This document shows, piece by piece, positions 13,039 through 22,410 of a DNA stretch of 64,000 bases (the first letter of the stretch is position 1; each line of letters opens with the position of its first letter). Location: NCBI GenBank assembly GCA_003331605.1, contig QOPD01000001.1:147936-211935 (forward strand). The letters run 5' to 3'. The position numbers and the translations under genes are program-made. The stretch comes from SAR86 cluster bacterium (GTDB lineage Bacteria > Pseudomonadota > Gammaproteobacteria > Magnimaribacterales > TMED112). The notes below the pieces were generated by a model that was given only the letters and a program-made list of their open reading frames with translations, had not been told where the DNA came from and did not search any database.

Positions 13039-13713
13039 ATGATAAAGCTATATACAGCTCCGACTCCTAACGGCTATAAAGTTTCATGCTTGCTTGAAAT
13101 GTTGCAGATGCCTTATGAATACGAGCTGGTTAATTTGCTTGAGAAAGAACAGTTCTCAGATCAGTTTAAAAACATTAGTCCGAACTCAAAAATACCAGCT
13201 ATTGAAGATACTGAAAATAATTTTGCCTTGGCTGAATCAGGAGCAATTATGATTTATCTGGCAGATAAAGCTGGGAAAATGTTGCCTAAATCTGGCAAAG
13301 AAAGGTATGAGGTCCTGCAATGGATAATGTTTCAAATGGGTCACATTGGACCAATGATGGGACAAGCCAATGTCTTTTATAGATATCTCCCTGAAAAAAT
13401 CCCTGCTGCTATCAGTAGATATCACAATGAATGTAGAAGGCTTTTTGAAGTTATGAACAATCGGCTATCAATTCAGCAATGGTTGTGTAAGGAATTTTCT
13501 ATAGCTGATCTGGCTAATTGGTGCTGGGTTAGAACTTATAGCTGGTCTGGTATCAAGATGGATGGGCTTGATCATTTGGAAAGGTGGCTCAAGGAAATTA
13601 AAACCATGCCAGGCATTAAAGAGGGGCTAGACATTCCAATTCCACTTACTGAATTAAAAAAAATAAGAGATGAACAAAGAGCAAAAAATGCTGATGCTAT
13701 TGTTCAAAAATAA
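13039..13713 (+). CDS. Glutathione S-transferase (YfcG/YghU-like, Nu class)
   Basis: TAPTPNGYK, SPNSKIPAI, ESGAIMIYLA and WIMFQMGHIGPMMGQAN motifs. Confidence 0.92.
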   Translation: MIKLYTAPTPNGYKVSCLLEMLQMPYEYELVNLLEKEQFSDQFKNISPNSKIPAIEDTENNFALAESGAIMIYLADKAGKMLPKSGKERYEVLQWIMFQMGHIGPMMGQANVFYRYLPEKIPAAISRYHNECRRLFEVMNNRLSIQQWLCKEFSIADLANWCWVRTYSWSGIKMDGLDHLERWLKEIKTMPGIKEGLDIPIPLTELKKIRDEQRAKNADAIVQK

Positions 13714-13714
13714 A

Positions 13715-13741
13715 AAAAGGCACCAGGAACAGGTGCCTTTT
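13715..13741. terminator. Intrinsic terminator between GST and the small ORF; strongest on the minus strand
   Basis: Perfect stem AAAAGGCACC-(7 nt)-GGTGCCTTTT. The plus-strand A-run upstream gives a long U-tail on the minus-strand transcript. Confidence 0.85.
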
Positions 13742-13768
13742 CAAAATGCTTAAACTAAGCAATACCAA

Positions 13769-13900
13769 TTAGTGGGCCTTAGATTTTTCTTTAATCAAAA
13801 GATTTTTCTGTAAAAACAGATTAAATCGGTACTTTTTAAGCGTTAGCCTTTTATTAGATTTAATAGCAGCTTTATGCTGTATTAATTGCAGATTTGTCAT
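13769..13900 (-). CDS. Unannotated 43-aa basic protein MTNLQLIQHKAAIKSNKRLTLKKYRFNLFLQKNLLIKEKSKAH, downstream of a tandem glutamine riboswitch
   Basis: AAGGAG (13907-13912) lies 6 nt before ATG 13900; stop TAA at 13769-13771; promoter and riboswitch upstream, terminator downstream. Too short for the ORF track. Confidence 0.75.
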   Translation of the reverse strand: MTNLQLIQHKAAIKSNKRLTLKKYRFNLFLQKNLLIKEKSKAH

Positions 13901-13922
13901 AAACATCTCCTTTTAAAAAGAT

Positions 13923-13973
13923 GCGTTCCTTCGGTACCATTACCTACTTCCGTCTTCTTGCGAAGATGAACGA
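13923..13973 (-). ncRNA. glnA-type glutamine riboswitch aptamer (3' copy of tandem 1)
   Basis: UCGUUCAUCUUCGCAAGAAGACGGAAGUAGGUAAUGGUACCGAAGGAACGC: P1 CGUUC/GAACG, P2 UCUUC-GCAA-GAAGA, GGAAGUA junction, P3 GGUA/UACC, GAA E-loop strand. Matches the glnA motif as I recall it; no covariance search run. Confidence 0.85.
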
Positions 13974-13977
13974 GGGT

Positions 13978-14024
13978 ACGTTCCTTCAGCCTTAGCCTAC
14001 TTCCGTCCCTTGCGGGATGAACGA
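13978..14024 (-). ncRNA. glnA-type glutamine riboswitch aptamer (5' copy of tandem 1)
   Basis: UCGUUCAUCCCGCAAGGGACGGAAGUAGGCUAAGGCUGAAGGAACGU: same core, P2 UCCC-GCAA-GGGA, P3 GGC/GCU. Confidence 0.83.
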
Positions 14025-14069
14025 GTAGTCTTTTAACCCATGACAAATGGAGAGAAAATTCCCAATTTC

Positions 14070-14098
14070 AATATACCAAAATGGCCAAAATTTAGCAA
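14070..14098 (-). promoter_or_regulatory. sigma70-like promoter for the riboswitch/small-ORF transcript
   Basis: Minus strand TTGCTA-N17-TATATT with TG of an extended -10. Confidence 0.6.
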
Positions 14099-14368
14099 TT
14101 AGTTATTTACTTTGCAGTAAGTGTTGAAATTAATAGCATGATTTTCTGCCAATTCGGACAAAAAGTATGCTTCTTCTGTAAGTTTTTTAGCTTCTTCAAC
14201 TTTGCCATTTTTTTCAGCTTCATCAGCTTTTTTCAAAAGCTCTCCAGAGTAGTATAAAAATACTCCCGAAGCTTCACTTATTTTTTTACAATCTTCTATC
14301 TTCCAGTAACCTAGGGATGTACAAGATCCTAAAACCCCAGTTAACAGAATAATAACCAAATTTTTCAT
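14099..14368 (-). CDS. Hypothetical small lipoprotein
   Basis: MKNLVIILLTGVLGS-C lipobox-like signal; helical mature part with two further Cys. Confidence 0.7.
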   Translation of the reverse strand: MKNLVIILLTGVLGSCTSLGYWKIEDCKKISEASGVFLYYSGELLKKADEAEKNGKVEEAKKLTEEAYFLSELAENHAINFNTYCKVNN

Positions 14369-15110: not shown

Positions 15111-15186
15111 TGGTGCCCAGAGGTGGAATCGAACCACCGACACAAGGATTTTCAGTCCTTTGCTCTACCAACTGAGCTATCTGGGC
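15111..15186 (-). tRNA. tRNA-Phe (GAA)
   Basis: GCCCAGATAGCTCAGTTGGTAGAGCAAAGGACTGAAAATCCTTGTGTCGGTGGTTCGATTCCACCTCTGGGCACCA: 76-nt cloverleaf with encoded CCA. Confidence 0.98.
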
Positions 15187-20308: not shown

Positions 20309-20713
20309 ATGGATTTATTCGATTTTTTATTTTCTAGATGGTATCTATCACTTCCATTGTTCATAACTTTGGTTTCTTGGTGGATATACGAAAATAATAA
20401 AGGCGGCAAAAAGATTGGTCCAACAGAGGCAACACAATTGGTCAATCAAAGCTCTGCATTTTTCTTGGATATTAGAGATAGAGATTCTTTCGAGTCAGGT
20501 CATATACATGGATCTATAAATGTCCCAAAGGAGAGTTTCAAGCAACAAGAACATCTTCTAGTGAATGATAAAGCGGTAATCATAGTTTCGGAAAATGGCT
20601 TGGATGCTGGTGGAGCAGGTGTTGAGCTCAAGCAATTAGGTGTCAAACAAGTATTTCTTTTGAAGTATGGCCTAGTTTCTTGGGCAGAAGAGAGCCTCCC
20701 ACTTGTAAAGTAG
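20309..20713 (+). CDS. Rhodanese-like domain protein (YibN-like)
   Basis: N-terminal TM helix, LDIRDRDSFESGHIHGSINVP and LKYGLVSW motifs. Confidence 0.85.
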   Translation: MDLFDFLFSRWYLSLPLFITLVSWWIYENNKGGKKIGPTEATQLVNQSSAFFLDIRDRDSFESGHIHGSINVPKESFKQQEHLLVNDKAVIIVSENGLDAGGAGVELKQLGVKQVFLLKYGLVSWAEESLPLVK

Positions 20714-20727
20714 AAGGCTCAATTAGT

Positions 20728-22134
20728 TTAGACACTATAGTACATATCGAATTCGACTGGATGAGTCGACATTCTTAGTCTATCAACTTCTTCCATTTTC
20801 AGTGAAATATAGTCATCAATTAAATTATCGGTAAAAACACCACCTTCTTTTAAGAAAGCTCGATCTTTATCCAAGGCTTGCAAGGCTTCATCAAGAGAAC
20901 TGCAAACGGTTTTAAATCTTCTTAGTTCTCTAGTAGATGCTTCATAGAGATCAAGATCACCCGGTTTCCCTGGATCAATTTTATTTCGTATTCCATCGAG
21001 TCCAGCCATAAGCATTGCTGCAAAAGTAAAGTAAGGGTTGCCTGATGCATCAGGGAATCTAACTTCTATTCTGGCTGCTTTTGGATTGCTTTCATAAGGG
21101 ATCCTGATAGAAGCCGATCTATTCTTATTTGAATAGGTAAGAATCACTGGGGCTTCGAAACCAGGCACGAGCCTTTTATAACTATTTGTGGTGGCATTGG
21201 AAAAGGCATTGATTGCTCTCGCATGCTTCATAATTCCACCAATGTAATAGAGAGCGTTTTGACTTAAACCACCATATTCTTTACCTGTGAATAAATTGAC
21301 TCCATCTTTTACAAGAGATTGGTGGCAATGCATCCCACTTCCGTTATCCCCAACCAATGGTTTTGGCATAAAAGTTGCTGTTTTCCCATAGTTAAATGCA
21401 GTGTTATGAACACAGTACTTAAATGTTTGAATATCGTCAGCCTTTTTTGTTAACGAATTAAATTTCACCCCTATTTCACACTGTCCAGCAGTACCAACTT
21501 CGTGGTGATGAACTTCCGTCTCAAGACCAAAATCTTGACAGGCCTTACAAGCTGCAGCTCTAAGATCTGCAAGAGAGTCAACAGGTGGGACAGGGAAGTA
21601 ACCACCTTTTACTCCTGGCCTATGACCAAGGTTGCCTTCTTCGTATTCAGTATCTGTTTCCCATGCACCTTCTTCAGAAGAAATTTGGTATGACATTTTT
21701 TGCATTTCAGTTGACCATCTGATGTCATCAAAGACAAAGAACTCAGGCTCTGGTCCAAAGAATGCCTCATCGGCAATACCTTCAGATCTCATAAAGTCTT
21801 CTGCCTTTTTTGCGACTGATCTAGGGTCTTTTTCGTACCCTTTTCCATCGCTTGGTTCAACGATATCGCATCTTAATATTACAAGAGGGTCATCGGAGAA
21901 AACATCAAGAACACAAGTACTATCATCTGGCATGAGAATCATGTCTGATTCATTGATTGGTTTCCAGCCTGCTATGGAAGAACCATCAAACATTTTTCCA
22001 TCGGTGAAGAAGCTTTCATCTACTGTGCTAGTAGATACTGTTACGTGCTGCTCTTTACCTTTGGTATCGGTAAAGCGTAGGTCAACCCATTCAGCTTTTG
22101 AATCGGCAATGAGTTTTAAAGTATTTTTTGACAT
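20728..22134 (-). CDS. glnA: Glutamine synthetase type I
   Basis: [46 protein letters not shown] and NRSASIRIP motifs; the adenylylation-site Tyr region (DLYE) is present. Confidence 0.99.
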
Positions 22135-22221
22135 AAAAATGCTCCAATTAAATTAATTTAAAATTTTGCATTTTTGATCTGCAGGATATTTAGAAATTAA
22201 ACTCGGTCCTGTTTAACGGGC

Positions 22222-22270
22222 GCGTTCCTTCAGCTTTCGCTTACTTCCGTCTTCTTACGAAGATGAACGA
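22222..22270 (-). ncRNA. glnA-type glutamine riboswitch aptamer (3' copy, glnA leader)
   Basis: UCGUUCAUCUUCGUAAGAAGACGGAAGUAAGCGAAAGCUGAAGGAACGC; P3 AGC-GAAA-GCU; lies in the glnA 5' region. Confidence 0.88.
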
Positions 22271-22291
22271 TTTACGTTTCCTGTAAACGGC

Positions 22292-22340
22292 GCGTTCCTT
22301 CAGTTTTAACCTACTTCCGTCTTCTTACGAAGATGAACGA
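22292..22340 (-). ncRNA. glnA-type glutamine riboswitch aptamer (5' copy, glnA leader)
   Basis: UCGUUCAUCUUCGUAAGAAGACGGAAGUAGGUUAAAACUGAAGGAACGC; P3 GGU-UAAA-ACU. Confidence 0.88.
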
Positions 22341-22410
22341 TTTAACTCTTACCTTATTAAAGGCACCTTTCTAACCATGGAGTATGGTGCAAAAATAAAA
22401 ATGCTTTTTA

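What the first reader, a model, noticed from the sequence alone, without database searches (positions are those of the whole stretch)
13715..14098. Hidden 43-aa basic protein under a tandem glutamine riboswitch: candidate glutamine synthetase regulator (GifB/IF-like logic) in a gammaproteobacterium
Seen in sequence: a complete minus-strand unit missed by the ORF track. It runs TTGCTA-N17-TATATT promoter, two glnA-type aptamers, AAGGAG RBS, ORF MTNLQLIQHKAAIKSNKRLTLKKYRFNLFLQKNLLIKEKSKAH (9 K, 2 R, 1 E), then a strong intrinsic terminator. Near-identical aptamers precede glnA 8 kb away. Established: in cyanobacteria this riboswitch class switches ON gifB, which encodes IF17, a basic disordered protein that inactivates GS. 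Inference: the peptide is an analogous glutamine-induced effector acting on GS or another nitrogen-assimilation protein. I see no sequence similarity to IF7/IF17/DUF4278, so it may be a new family.
Basis: partly seen in the sequence, partly recalled or inferred. Interest (0 to 1): 0.9.

Follow-up and report, generated by a model that had tools for sequence, protein, structure and literature searches.

The report
Glutamine-riboswitch-controlled 43-aa microprotein gene in SAR86
A marine SAR86 bacterium carries a real, selection-maintained gene for a 43-residue basic helical peptide whose translation appears to be switched on by glutamine through two RNA sensors, and it is one of several unrelated small-peptide families wired this way in ocean heterotrophs, which hints that the peptide-based control of nitrogen assimilation known from cyanobacteria is more widespread.

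Summary
On the minus strand, 13704-14098 holds an extended -10 promoter, two RF01739 glutamine aptamers (56.8 and 61.4 bits), a hairpin that buries the AAGGAG ribosome-binding site, a 43-codon ORF and a strong terminator.

The ORF behaves as a protein-coding gene. All 13 complete related copies are intact. Variable sites split 3/3/10 by codon position. pN/pS is 0.15 in this frame only.

The peptide (pI 10.9, predicted as one helix) has no detectable homolog beyond a narrow SAR86 lineage. It matches no Pfam (DUF4278 included), NCBIfam or PDB entry.

The regulatory cassette is widely shared. The same two aptamers plus the same RBS-sequestering hairpin precede at least five other unrelated basic ORFs of 35-54 aa in SAR86, Betaproteobacteria, SAR116 and Rhodospirillaceae. 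SAR86 and SAR92 also carry true DUF4278 (IF17-like) ORFs behind tandem aptamers.

The hairpin pairs the aptamer's "linchpin" C, as in cyanobacterial gifB, so glutamine-ON translation is the likeliest logic. glnA, 8 kb away, uses a different expression platform.

A glutamine-synthetase target is plausible but untested. Verdict: real gene, new peptide family, known regulatory logic in a new host group.

The parts
14070..14098 (-). Sigma-70-type promoter: -35 TTGCTA (14098-14093), 17-nt spacer, TGn-extended -10 TATATT (14075-14070). The predicted transcription start is near 14063.
   Evidence: 9/12 match, TG present. In one search the -10 and the TG are invariant in five related loci, while the -35 varies (TTGCTA/TTGTCA/TTGCCA).
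14026..14063 (-). 5' leader ahead of aptamer 1. It contains AUUUGUCAU (14048-14040), a perfect complement of the start codon plus codons 2-3 (13900-13892).
   Evidence: The MFE and centroid folds pair these segments. A 9-nt complement this long was reached in 121 of 20000 shuffles, and the duplex energy is -10.9 kcal/mol. It is found only in this peptide's family. Both sides are invariant, so there is no covariation test.
13975..14025 (-). Glutamine aptamer 1 (RF01739). The position 3' of P1 that is normally the linchpin C is a U here.
   Evidence: 56.8 bits. One search shows GGAACG-U in this family against GGAACG-C in all other cassettes.
13920..13974 (-). Glutamine aptamer 2 (RF01739). It abuts the expression platform.
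   Evidence: 61.4 bits. Substitutions among relatives fall in loops.
13903..13924 (-). RBS-sequestering hairpin (expression platform). GCAUCUUUU pairs with AAGGAGAUGU. The linchpin C13923 pairs with G13904, and the SD AAGGAG (13912-13907) lies inside the stem.
   Evidence: Fold (-7.3 kcal/mol). Across 14 distinct leaders 94% of cells are paired, against 37-67% in slid registers, and two pairs show two-sided changes (U:A to C:G five times).
13769..13900 (-). 43-codon ORF (stop codon included). It encodes a basic peptide (pI 10.9, net charge about +10), predicted as one continuous alpha-helix.
   Evidence: Coding signature. AF2 gives a helix over residues 3-42 at pLDDT 94.5. Composition.
13704..13742 (-). 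Intrinsic terminator (11-bp stem, 7-nt loop, T run). It ends the monocistronic transcript and abuts the stop codon of the convergent GST gene (13039-13713 +).
   Evidence: It is conserved, with a loop substitution and a stem G:C to G:U change in relatives.
22219..22341 (-). Comparator in the same genome: the tandem glutamine aptamers ahead of glnA. They are followed by a different, roughly 85-nt expression platform.
20728..22134 (-). glnA, a type I glutamine synthetase (468 aa) and the candidate target of the peptide. It is monocistronic, with no ntrBC downstream.
   Evidence: Gln-synt_C 435 bits, Gln-synt_N 97.5 bits; the neighbours are unrelated genes.

Best explanation
A short mRNA of about 350 nt is made from its own promoter. 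It carries two glutamine aptamers, a 43-codon ORF and a terminator.

**Low glutamine.** The nucleotides just 3' of aptamer 2's P1 helix (GCAUCUUUU, including the linchpin C13923) pair with AAGGAGAUGU and bury the ribosome-binding site. In this lineage a 5' leader segment also pairs with the start codon.

**High glutamine.** Ligand binding draws the linchpin C into the aptamer, weakens the hairpin and frees the RBS. The cell then makes a strongly basic 43-residue helical peptide only when it is nitrogen-replete. This is a translational ON switch with the same logic as cyanobacterial gifB/IF17.

**What the peptide does.** It most likely binds and down-tunes a nitrogen-assimilation protein. The type I glutamine synthetase encoded 8 kb away is the leading candidate.

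**My estimates for each step**
- Real protein-coding gene: about 0.9 (shown by comparative evidence).
- Controlled by the riboswitch at translation initiation: about 0.85 (shown by anatomy and covariation).
- ON rather than OFF: about 0.65-0.7 (inferred by analogy of structure).
- Effector of nitrogen assimilation: about 0.5 (inferred).
- GS specifically: about 0.25-0.3 (inferred).
For: **Aptamers.** Four RF01739 hits far above the gathering score. Substitutions among relatives fall in loops.

**Coding.**
- 13 complete related copies from metagenomes and MAGs (a 14th is cut by a contig end), giving 7 alleles with the window; every copy is an intact 43 codons.
- Variable sites split 3/3/10 by codon position.
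- Window against L001: pN/pS 0.15, Fisher p 0.0005. The other two frames give ratios of 1.2-1.3.
- The only indel among relatives lies just after the stop codon.

**Platform.**
- The hairpin forms in 14 distinct leaders from four bacterial groups. It always starts within 0-1 nt of P1, and the linchpin C:G pair is invariant.
- There are U:A to C:G double changes, and 94% of cells are paired against 37-67% in shifted registers.
- Published structure: glutamine induces a G23-C60 linchpin pair at the base of P1 (PMC11477058).
- Published function: in gifB this C and its 3' neighbours pair with the RBS, and the switch is ON (PMC6212724).

**Different fate for glnA.** The same genome puts a different platform behind the glnA aptamers. 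That platform is shared with GSII and porin genes of other SAR86.

**Parallels.**
- The cassette precedes other basic ORFs of 35-54 aa (pI 9.6-10.9), each with a terminator. The five families with a usable comparison have low pN/pS.
- DUF4278 ORFs follow tandem aptamers in SAR86 and SAR92 (30.2 bits against a gathering score of 25.3).
Against: - There are no expression, translation or binding data of any kind.
- The direction of switching is inferred. No tandem glnA-type riboswitch has been tested.
- Aptamer 1 has U instead of the linchpin C, so its competence is uncertain.
- The peptide has no similarity to IF7/IF17/DUF4278 or to the other cassette-linked families.
- The family is confined to a narrow lineage: two 90% clusters among 5.8 billion proteins and six metagenome loci. 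That is unusual for a core regulator.
- The coding statistics rest on essentially two diverged lineages and 13 substitutions.
- Neighbouring genes give no functional hint.
- Proteobacterial GS is classically controlled by adenylylation. Whether this genome has glnE, glnD or PII could not be checked.
Confidence: 0.5

Rival explanations
1. Same gene and same glutamine-ON control, but the peptide acts on something other than GS. Candidates include an ammonium transporter, GOGAT, a transcription factor, the ribosome or nucleic acid (it carries about +10 net charge), or the membrane.
For: No link to GS beyond analogy. The riboswitch regulon in these clades also includes amt, GSII and a porin-like gene, so other nitrogen-related targets exist. 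The unrelated sequences of the cassette-linked families could mean different targets. The basic amphipathic helix is generic.
Against: The only characterised products of this riboswitch class are GS inactivating factors (PMC6212724). DUF4278 occupies the same cassette slot in sister lineages.
Confidence: 0.3
2. The switch is OFF. Glutamine stabilises a structure that blocks translation, so the peptide is made under nitrogen limitation. It could then act as an activator or stabiliser, as sP26 does for GS in Methanosarcina mazei.
For: The direction is untested. The leader-to-start-codon pairing encloses both aptamers and could be stabilised when the aptamers fold. Small proteins that enhance GS are known (bioRxiv 10.1101/2020.05.06.080432, listed).
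Against: The RBS partner is exactly the segment that the ligand-bound aptamer recruits: linchpin C paired C:G in 14 of 14 leaders (PMC11477058). This is the gifB ON design. glnA, which should be OFF at high glutamine, uses a different platform.
Confidence: 0.15
3. The functional product is the RNA, either a riboswitch-gated small RNA or a glutamine 'sponge'. On this view the ORF is incidental or serves only as a translated spacer.
For: The first 13 codons are invariant at the DNA level, which suggests RNA constraint. The peptide bodies of different cassette families are unrelated while the leader is highly conserved across bacterial classes.
Against: Purifying selection is frame-specific on the amino-acid sequence, here and in the five other families with a usable comparison. 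The SD and start spacing are conserved. There are no frameshifts or stops in the 13 complete related copies. Families A and B keep strict C-terminal peptide motifs across more than 100 and more than 40 clusters.
Confidence: 0.05

Closest known systems
gifB (IF17) under the type 1 glutamine riboswitch of Synechocystis sp. PCC 6803 (Klahn et al. 2018, PMC6212724)
   Same: Same aptamer class (RF01739). The RBS pairs with the nucleotides 3' of P1, including the linchpin C. The product is a small basic protein made from a short dedicated transcript. The logic is that high glutamine leads to peptide synthesis.
   Different: There are two aptamers in tandem instead of one. The host is a heterotrophic SAR86 gammaproteobacterium. 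The peptide is 43 aa, has no DUF4278 and no similarity to IF7/IF17, and is predicted to be helical. The same genome also places the riboswitch directly on glnA, which was not seen in any cyanobacterial genome. Neither the function nor the direction has been tested.
Downstream-peptide motif (RF01704, type 2 glutamine riboswitch) with Yfr6/short DUF4278 ORFs in Prochlorococcus and Synechococcus (Weinberg 2010, PMC2864571; Klahn 2018)
   Same: A glutamine aptamer in the 5' UTR of a very short ORF (17-100 aa) that annotation long overlooked. Coding was inferred there too from synonymous substitution patterns.
   Different: A different aptamer class: no RF01704 hit in the window. A different peptide family and a different phylum.
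Unnamed SAR86 'hypothetical protein' families found here behind the same cassette: family A (52-54 aa, ...KKDVFFPYYL, more than 100 clusters) and family B (46 aa, ...LPAYVTDNPFYP, more than 40 clusters)
   Same: The leader is about 86% identical to the window's through both aptamers and the CAUCU...GGAGAUG hairpin up to the start codon. They are monocistronic with a terminator, basic, and have low pN/pS.
   Different: No detectable homology of the peptide or of the ORF DNA. The window peptide scores no better than 14-17% of its own shuffles against the family A and B+C profiles. It lacks the aromatic-proline C-terminal motif. There is no shared synteny. It carries an extra 5' leader with a start-codon complement.
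sP26 of Methanosarcina mazei, a 23-aa protein that binds and enhances GS
   Same: A microprotein proposed to modulate GS directly.
   Different: It is archaeal, an activator induced by nitrogen limitation, and not riboswitch-controlled. It is cited only as a precedent for the opposite polarity.

Membership tests
Glutamine riboswitch type 1 (glnA RNA motif, RF01739) | Covariance-model match above the curated gathering score (35 bits) | tested here: met
   56.8 and 61.4 bits for the two aptamers at 13920-14025. 68.7 and 71.1 bits for the glnA pair.
Glutamine riboswitch type 1 (glnA RNA motif, RF01739) | P1/P2/P3 three-way junction with the conserved CGGAAGUA and GAAGGAACG junction and P1 sequences | tested here: met
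   The alignments to the consensus show all three helices and both conserved strings in each aptamer.
Glutamine riboswitch type 1 (glnA RNA motif, RF01739) | Linchpin C immediately 3' of P1 that pairs with a J2/3 G on ligand binding | tested here: inconclusive
   Present in aptamer 2 (C13923). Aptamer 1 has U at that position in every member of this lineage. A G-U pair is possible, but its effect is unknown.
Glutamine riboswitch type 1 (glnA RNA motif, RF01739) | Selective binding of L-glutamine and ligand-dependent gene control | not testable with these tools
   Needs in-line probing or ITC, and reporter assays.
GS inactivating factors IF17/IF7 (DUF4278, PF14105, plus the IF7-like C-terminal region) | Match to the DUF4278 profile | tested here: not met
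   No Pfam hit at E <= 1 for the window peptide. The SAR86 ORF in L039 scores 30.2 bits (gathering score 25.3) in the same call, so the test had power.
GS inactivating factors IF17/IF7 (DUF4278, PF14105, plus the IF7-like C-terminal region) | Expression switched on by a glutamine riboswitch in the 5' UTR | tested here: inconclusive
   The riboswitch is present and the platform is of the gifB type. The direction has not been measured.
GS inactivating factors IF17/IF7 (DUF4278, PF14105, plus the IF7-like C-terminal region) | Binds type I glutamine synthetase and inactivates it | not testable with these tools
   Needs a biochemical assay with GlnA from 20728-22134. No complex prediction was available.
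SAR86 cassette-linked microprotein family A (FFPYYL) and families B/C | Significant match to a profile built from family members | tested here: not met
   Family A HMM: 3.0 bits, reached by 383 of 2000 and 510 of 3000 shuffles. Families B+C HMM: 3.3 bits, 407 of 3000. Family C alone: 5.8 bits, 56 of 3000, which is only a weak N-terminal resemblance.
SAR86 cassette-linked microprotein family A (FFPYYL) and families B/C | Same regulatory cassette: aptamer 1, linker, aptamer 2 with GGUAAUGNUACC P3, CAUCU...GGAGAUG hairpin, start codon 2-5 nt after the hairpin, terminator | tested here: met
   The differences are the linker (GUACCCU against GCAUUAUCA) and an added 5' leader.

The most novel reading that the evidence does not exclude
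Peptide-mediated, glutamine-riboswitch-gated control of nitrogen assimilation is described in the literature read here as unique to cyanobacteria. It may instead be widespread in the dominant marine heterotrophs.

On this reading, a conserved 'glutamine-ON' tandem-aptamer cassette, shared across SAR86, SAR92, SAR116, Rhodospirillaceae and marine Betaproteobacteria, drives a set of fast-evolving, mutually unrelated basic microproteins. These include true DUF4278/IF17-like ones. They would serve as lineage-specific inhibitors of glutamine synthetase or of other nitrogen-uptake proteins.

The window's 43-aa peptide would then be a recently arisen or replaced member of that functional class.
Probability: 0.3. 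Interest if true: 0.85.

Novelty: new variant of a known kind. Interest (0 to 1): 0.7.

Why it matters
SAR86 is one of the most abundant uncultured bacterial groups in the surface ocean, and how it senses nitrogen is essentially unknown.

Klahn et al. 2018 stated that glutamine riboswitches occur only in cyanobacteria and unassigned marine metagenome sequences. [quoted passage not shown]

The data here assign those riboswitches to named heterotroph lineages. In one genome the same sensor is wired to glnA through one platform and to a microprotein through a gifB-like platform. The microprotein slot is filled by DUF4278 in some lineages and by unrelated peptides in others.

If the peptides act on GS or on transporters, this is a compact RNA-plus-peptide nitrogen regulatory circuit in streamlined genomes. 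It would also be a natural example of rapid turnover of regulatory microproteins behind a conserved switch. The circuit is directly testable with a synthetic 43-mer and one recombinant enzyme.

Tried and rejected
1. **Homology of the peptide to anything known.**
   - The word-indexed search of 5.8 billion proteins found only two clusters, at 91-98% identity.
   - Exhaustive phmmer over 1.84 billion representatives found only one.
   - Pfam, NCBIfam and PDB gave nothing.

2. **A truncated or diverged member of family A, B or C.** Rejected.
   - The profile scores are no better than shuffles.
   - Pairwise Smith-Waterman gives p = 0.02 at best, against family C, before correcting for 11 comparisons.
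   - There is no similarity of the ORF bodies at the DNA level.
   - No FFPYYL, NPFYP or YRG-repeat ORF occurs anywhere in the window in any frame.

3. **Orthology by position.** Family A, B and C loci share none of the window's neighbours. Their own neighbours are not nitrogen genes.

4. **Remnant of a riboswitch-driven GSII gene.** Rejected. The platform is the small-ORF type, not the glnA/GSII type.

5. **Leader peptide or attenuator for a downstream gene.** Rejected. A terminator follows at once, and the next gene is convergent.

6. **The 45-aa start.** Rejected, because there is no spacer after the SD.

7. **More divergent relatives in metagenomes.** The scan returned only six loci, at 91-98% identity.

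8. **Short 'MQSYKIVQF...' ORFs in SAR11 and SAR116 loci.** These appear to be translations of the second aptamer itself and were discarded as artefacts of my ORF filter.

9. **L072 against L106 pN/pS.** This comparison was invalid because the sequences were out of register.

10. **Literature.** Seven full-text searches found no description of these small ORFs in SAR86 or other heterotrophs. The supplement of Klahn 2018 is not held.
Full report
**1. What is there**

Reading the minus strand from 14098 down to 13704 gives a compact transcription unit.
- The promoter scan finds TTGCTA-N17-TATATT with a TG extension at 14098-14070. It also finds a single terminator-like site at 13742-13714, with 11 pairs and a T run.
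- Rfam places two glutamine aptamers (RF01739) at 13975-14025 (56.8 bits) and 13920-13974 (61.4 bits). The gathering score is 35.
- Rfam places two more at 22219-22341, directly ahead of a 468-aa type I glutamine synthetase.
- AAGGAG (13912-13907) lies 6 nt ahead of the ATG at 13900.
The one correction is that the glnA aptamers match these in P1, P2 and the junctions but differ in P3 and the 3' tail.

**2. Whose genome**

Near-identical copies of the unit occur in a MAG titled 'SAR86 cluster bacterium BS301-5m-G67' (L009). They also occur in 'Gammaproteobacteria bacterium SD3109...409' (L118), whose contig has the riboswitch-glnA locus 8 kb away (L056), as in the window. G+C is about 36% throughout.

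**3. Is the ORF a gene?**

- The protein databases hold only two 90%-identity clusters of this peptide, both called as 43 aa. An exhaustive phmmer run over 1.84 billion representatives adds nothing. A metagenome scan adds six loci at 91-98% identity.
- In all, 13 complete related copies were recovered (a 14th is cut by a contig end), giving 7 distinct alleles with the window. Every one is an uninterrupted 43 codons. Variable sites fall 3/3/10 on codon positions 1/2/3.
- Between the two most diverged lineages (window and L001) there are 13 substitutions. pS is 0.31 and pN is 0.048, a ratio of 0.15 with Fisher p 0.0005. The same DNA read in the other two frames gives ratios of 1.2-1.3.
- The only indel among relatives lies in the 26-nt stretch between the stop codon and the terminator.
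- The sample is small, effectively two lineages. Within that limit the signature is that of a translated gene under purifying selection.
- The peptide has pI 10.9 and a net charge near +10. AlphaFold2 without an alignment predicts one helix over residues 3-42 at pLDDT 94.5.

**4. The same cassette elsewhere**

I scanned one genome per GTDB species with a pattern that requires two adjacent aptamers. What follows the aptamers sorts into two groups.
- **Nitrogen genes.** These are amt in SAR11 and SAR116, type I GS in SAR11 and SAR86, a 326-336-aa GSII in SAR86, and a porin-like 202-aa protein in SAR86.
- **Short ORFs.** Each begins 20-38 nt after aptamer 2, has an SD, and in nearly every case has its own terminator.

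The short ORFs fall into these families:
- Family A: SAR86, 52-54 aa, ending KKDVFFPYYL. It has 108 database clusters, all 'hypothetical'.
- Family B: SAR86, 46 aa, ending LPAYVTDNPFYP. It has more than 40 clusters.
- Family C: 53 aa.
- A betaproteobacterial family of 35-48 aa.
- A SAR116/alphaproteobacterial family of 38 aa (for taxonomy).
- A Rhodospirillaceae family of 35 aa.
- The window's own type.

All are basic, with pI 9.6-10.9. The five with a usable pairwise comparison (A, B, C, Rhodospirillaceae and the DUF4278 ORFs) show pN/pS of 0.00-0.32 in their own frame only.

In addition, SAR86 (L039, L113) and SAR92/Porticoccaceae (L024, L058, L065, L081) carry ORFs of 56-60 aa with three YRG repeats behind tandem aptamers. 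These match Pfam DUF4278, the domain of the cyanobacterial GS inactivating factor IF17. L039 scores 30.2 bits against a gathering score of 25.3, and L081 scores 22.8 bits.

**5. Relation of the window peptide to those families**

- The leader is clearly homologous. It is about 86% identical to family A leaders across both aptamers and the platform, and the similarity stops at the start codon.
- The peptide is not detectably related. Against a 99-sequence family A profile it scores 3.0 bits, which 19% of its own shuffles reach. Against families B+C it scores 3.3 bits, reached by 14% of shuffles.
- Against family C alone it scores 5.8 bits, reached by 1.9% of shuffles. This comes from a short N-terminal MT...K.A[IV]K resemblance that does not survive correction for multiple tests.
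- ORF DNA outside the start codon shows no similarity. The loci are not syntenic.
- I therefore treat the peptide as a sequence orphan behind a shared switch.

**6. How the switch probably works**

- In 14 distinct leaders from four bacterial groups, the segment just 3' of aptamer 2's P1 helix pairs with the SD region (GGAGAUG, GGGUG or AGUG). That segment reads GCAUCU, or GCACCU or GCACU in the beta- and alphaproteobacterial versions.
- I counted a six-pair helix on the alignment. 94% of cells pair, against 37-67% when the 3' partner is slid.
- One pair is U:A in nine leaders and C:G in five. Another changes both sides once. The pair formed by the C directly after GGAACG is C:G in 14 of 14.
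- These sequences are related, and the double changes probably reflect only a few events. The covariation is therefore supportive, not conclusive.
- That C is the published 'linchpin'. In the crystal structure, glutamine recruits a J2/3 guanine to pair with it at the base of P1 (review PMC11477058).
- Klahn et al. showed that the Synechocystis gifB riboswitch is ON. They proposed that this C and its 3' neighbours pair with the RBS until glutamine melts the duplex (PMC6212724).
- The window has the same design. C13923 pairs with G13904, and AAGGAG lies inside the stem 13903-13924. I therefore infer glutamine-ON translation, at about 0.65-0.7.

Two further points bear on this.
- First, the glnA aptamers in the same genome are followed by a different platform of about 85 nt (CGCCCGUUAAAC...GAGUUUAA...). 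That platform is shared with GSII and porin leaders of other SAR86. One sensor class is thus wired in two ways that sort by gene class. This is what reciprocal control would need, but I could not deduce the polarity of the glnA platform.
- Second, only the window's lineage has a 37-nt 5' leader. In it, AUUUGUCAU (14048-14040) is a perfect complement of AUGACAAAU (13900-13892). A complement that long was reached in 121 of 20000 shuffles, and the duplex energy is -10.9 kcal/mol. The MFE and centroid folds use it to close the whole two-aptamer domain. This may be a second lock on the start codon. It would also explain why the first 13 codons carry no substitution at all.

**7. What the peptide does**

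Nothing here tests a target.

The case for glutamine synthetase is by analogy:
- The only characterised outputs of this riboswitch class are GS inactivating factors.
- Sister lineages place a DUF4278 protein in the same slot.
- All the peptides are small and strongly basic.
- The genome's GS gene carries the same sensor.

The points against are:
- The sequences are unrelated.
- The predicted helix differs from disordered IF7.
- The family's distribution is narrow.
- I could not check for glnE, glnD or PII.

I put GS at 0.25-0.3 and 'some nitrogen-assimilation target' at about 0.5.

**8. Known or new**

The literature available here describes RF01739 as restricted to cyanobacteria and marine metagenomes. 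It notes links to glnA, amt, PII and GOGAT in metagenomes of unknown taxonomy. It describes short ORFs only in cyanobacteria, as DUF4278, and calls GS control by inhibitory proteins unique to cyanobacteria.

A 2025 long-read study mentions RF01739 inside SAR86 deletions, without discussing downstream genes. A phage paper reports glutamine riboswitches in pelagiphage and OM43-phage genomes. I found no description of the small-ORF families.

The regulatory logic is therefore a known kind. The peptide is a new family. The host group, the tandem cassette shared across bacterial classes and the dual wiring in one genome are new variants.

**9. Verdict**

This is a real and well-formed unit. Its functional reading is plausible but untested. 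Interest is 0.7. That score rests less on this single narrow-lineage peptide than on the broader pattern it exposes, which a synthetic peptide and one enzyme assay could test.

Noticed in passing
L039:4134-4474 (-), L113:1033-1373 (+), L024:7396-7745 (+), L058, L065, L081: ORFs of 56-60 aa with three YRG repeats sit behind tandem glutamine aptamers in SAR86 and SAR92/Porticoccaceae genomes and match Pfam DUF4278, the IF17 domain (30.2 bits against a gathering score of 25.3 for L039; 22.8 bits for L081). IF17-like proteins under this riboswitch thus exist outside cyanobacteria. Their platform differs from both the small-ORF type and the glnA type.
   Followed up: partly
L044:5394-5681 (+), L043, L064, L102, L011, L085; L053:6124-6397 (-), L073, L013, L119; L017:2384-2678 (-), L067: Three abundant, unnamed SAR86 microprotein families share the window's cassette: A ends KKDVFFPYYL, B ends LPAYVTDNPFYP, and C ends KPYYLDGSYGL. 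All three end in an aromatic-proline motif that the window peptide lacks. B and C look related (p = 0.002).
   Followed up: partly
window 22135-22218 (-); L031, L034, L056, L066, L075, L090, L015, L025, L069: glnA, a 326-336-aa GSII and a porin-like 202-aa gene of SAR86 share a second conserved expression platform after the aptamers (CGCCCGUUAAAC...GAGUUUAAC...). Its switching logic is unresolved.
   Followed up: partly
window 14040-14048 and 13892-13900 (-): A 5' leader segment is a perfect 9-nt complement of the start codon plus codons 2-3 (121 of 20000 shuffles reach it). It occurs only in this peptide's lineage. It coincides with complete nucleotide invariance of the first 13 codons.
   Followed up: partly
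window 13975-13981 (-) and the aptamer 2 P3 loop near 13936-13947: In this lineage aptamer 1 has U instead of the linchpin C, and the inter-aptamer linker is GUACCCU instead of GCAUUAUCA. The aptamer 2 P3 loop also changed (GGUAAUGGUACC). In both versions the linker is complementary to part of that P3 hairpin. This may be an alternative pairing that couples the two aptamers, or it may be chance.
   Followed up: no
L021, L052, L092 (Betaproteobacteria); L072, L106 (SAR116/Alphaproteobacteria); L048, L095, L099 (Rhodospirillaceae): The small-ORF-type cassette, including the aptamer 2 P3 sequence GGUAAUGNUACC and the GCAUUAUCA linker, is about 80-85% identical across bacterial classes, while the ORFs behind it are unrelated. 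This suggests horizontal spread of the cassette or very strong constraint.
   Followed up: partly
window 14099-14368 (-): An 89-aa ORF with a lipoprotein-like N-terminus and no Pfam match lies directly upstream, and its stop codon touches the -35 box. It is present in L001-L003 and L006 but has no tblastn match in L118, where the PepSY-like gene ends about 100 nt upstream of the aptamers. It is therefore a variable insertion.
   Followed up: partly
window 20309-22134: glnA is monocistronic. The downstream neighbours are rhodanese, histidine phosphatase and HhH-GPD glycosylase genes. There is no ntrB/ntrC next to it, unlike the classical gammaproteobacterial glnA-ntrBC arrangement.
   Followed up: partly
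window 15114-15186 (-): A tRNA gene (75.2 bits; the anticodon loop reads as GAA, Phe) lies between the PepSY-like gene and a 692-aa ORF.
   Followed up: no
L004:1-31, L005:1-31: Two independent short-read assemblies break at the same base inside aptamer 2. The likely cause is that the aptamer is repeated in the genome. Riboswitch-linked small genes may therefore be systematically cut off in metagenome assemblies.
   Followed up: no
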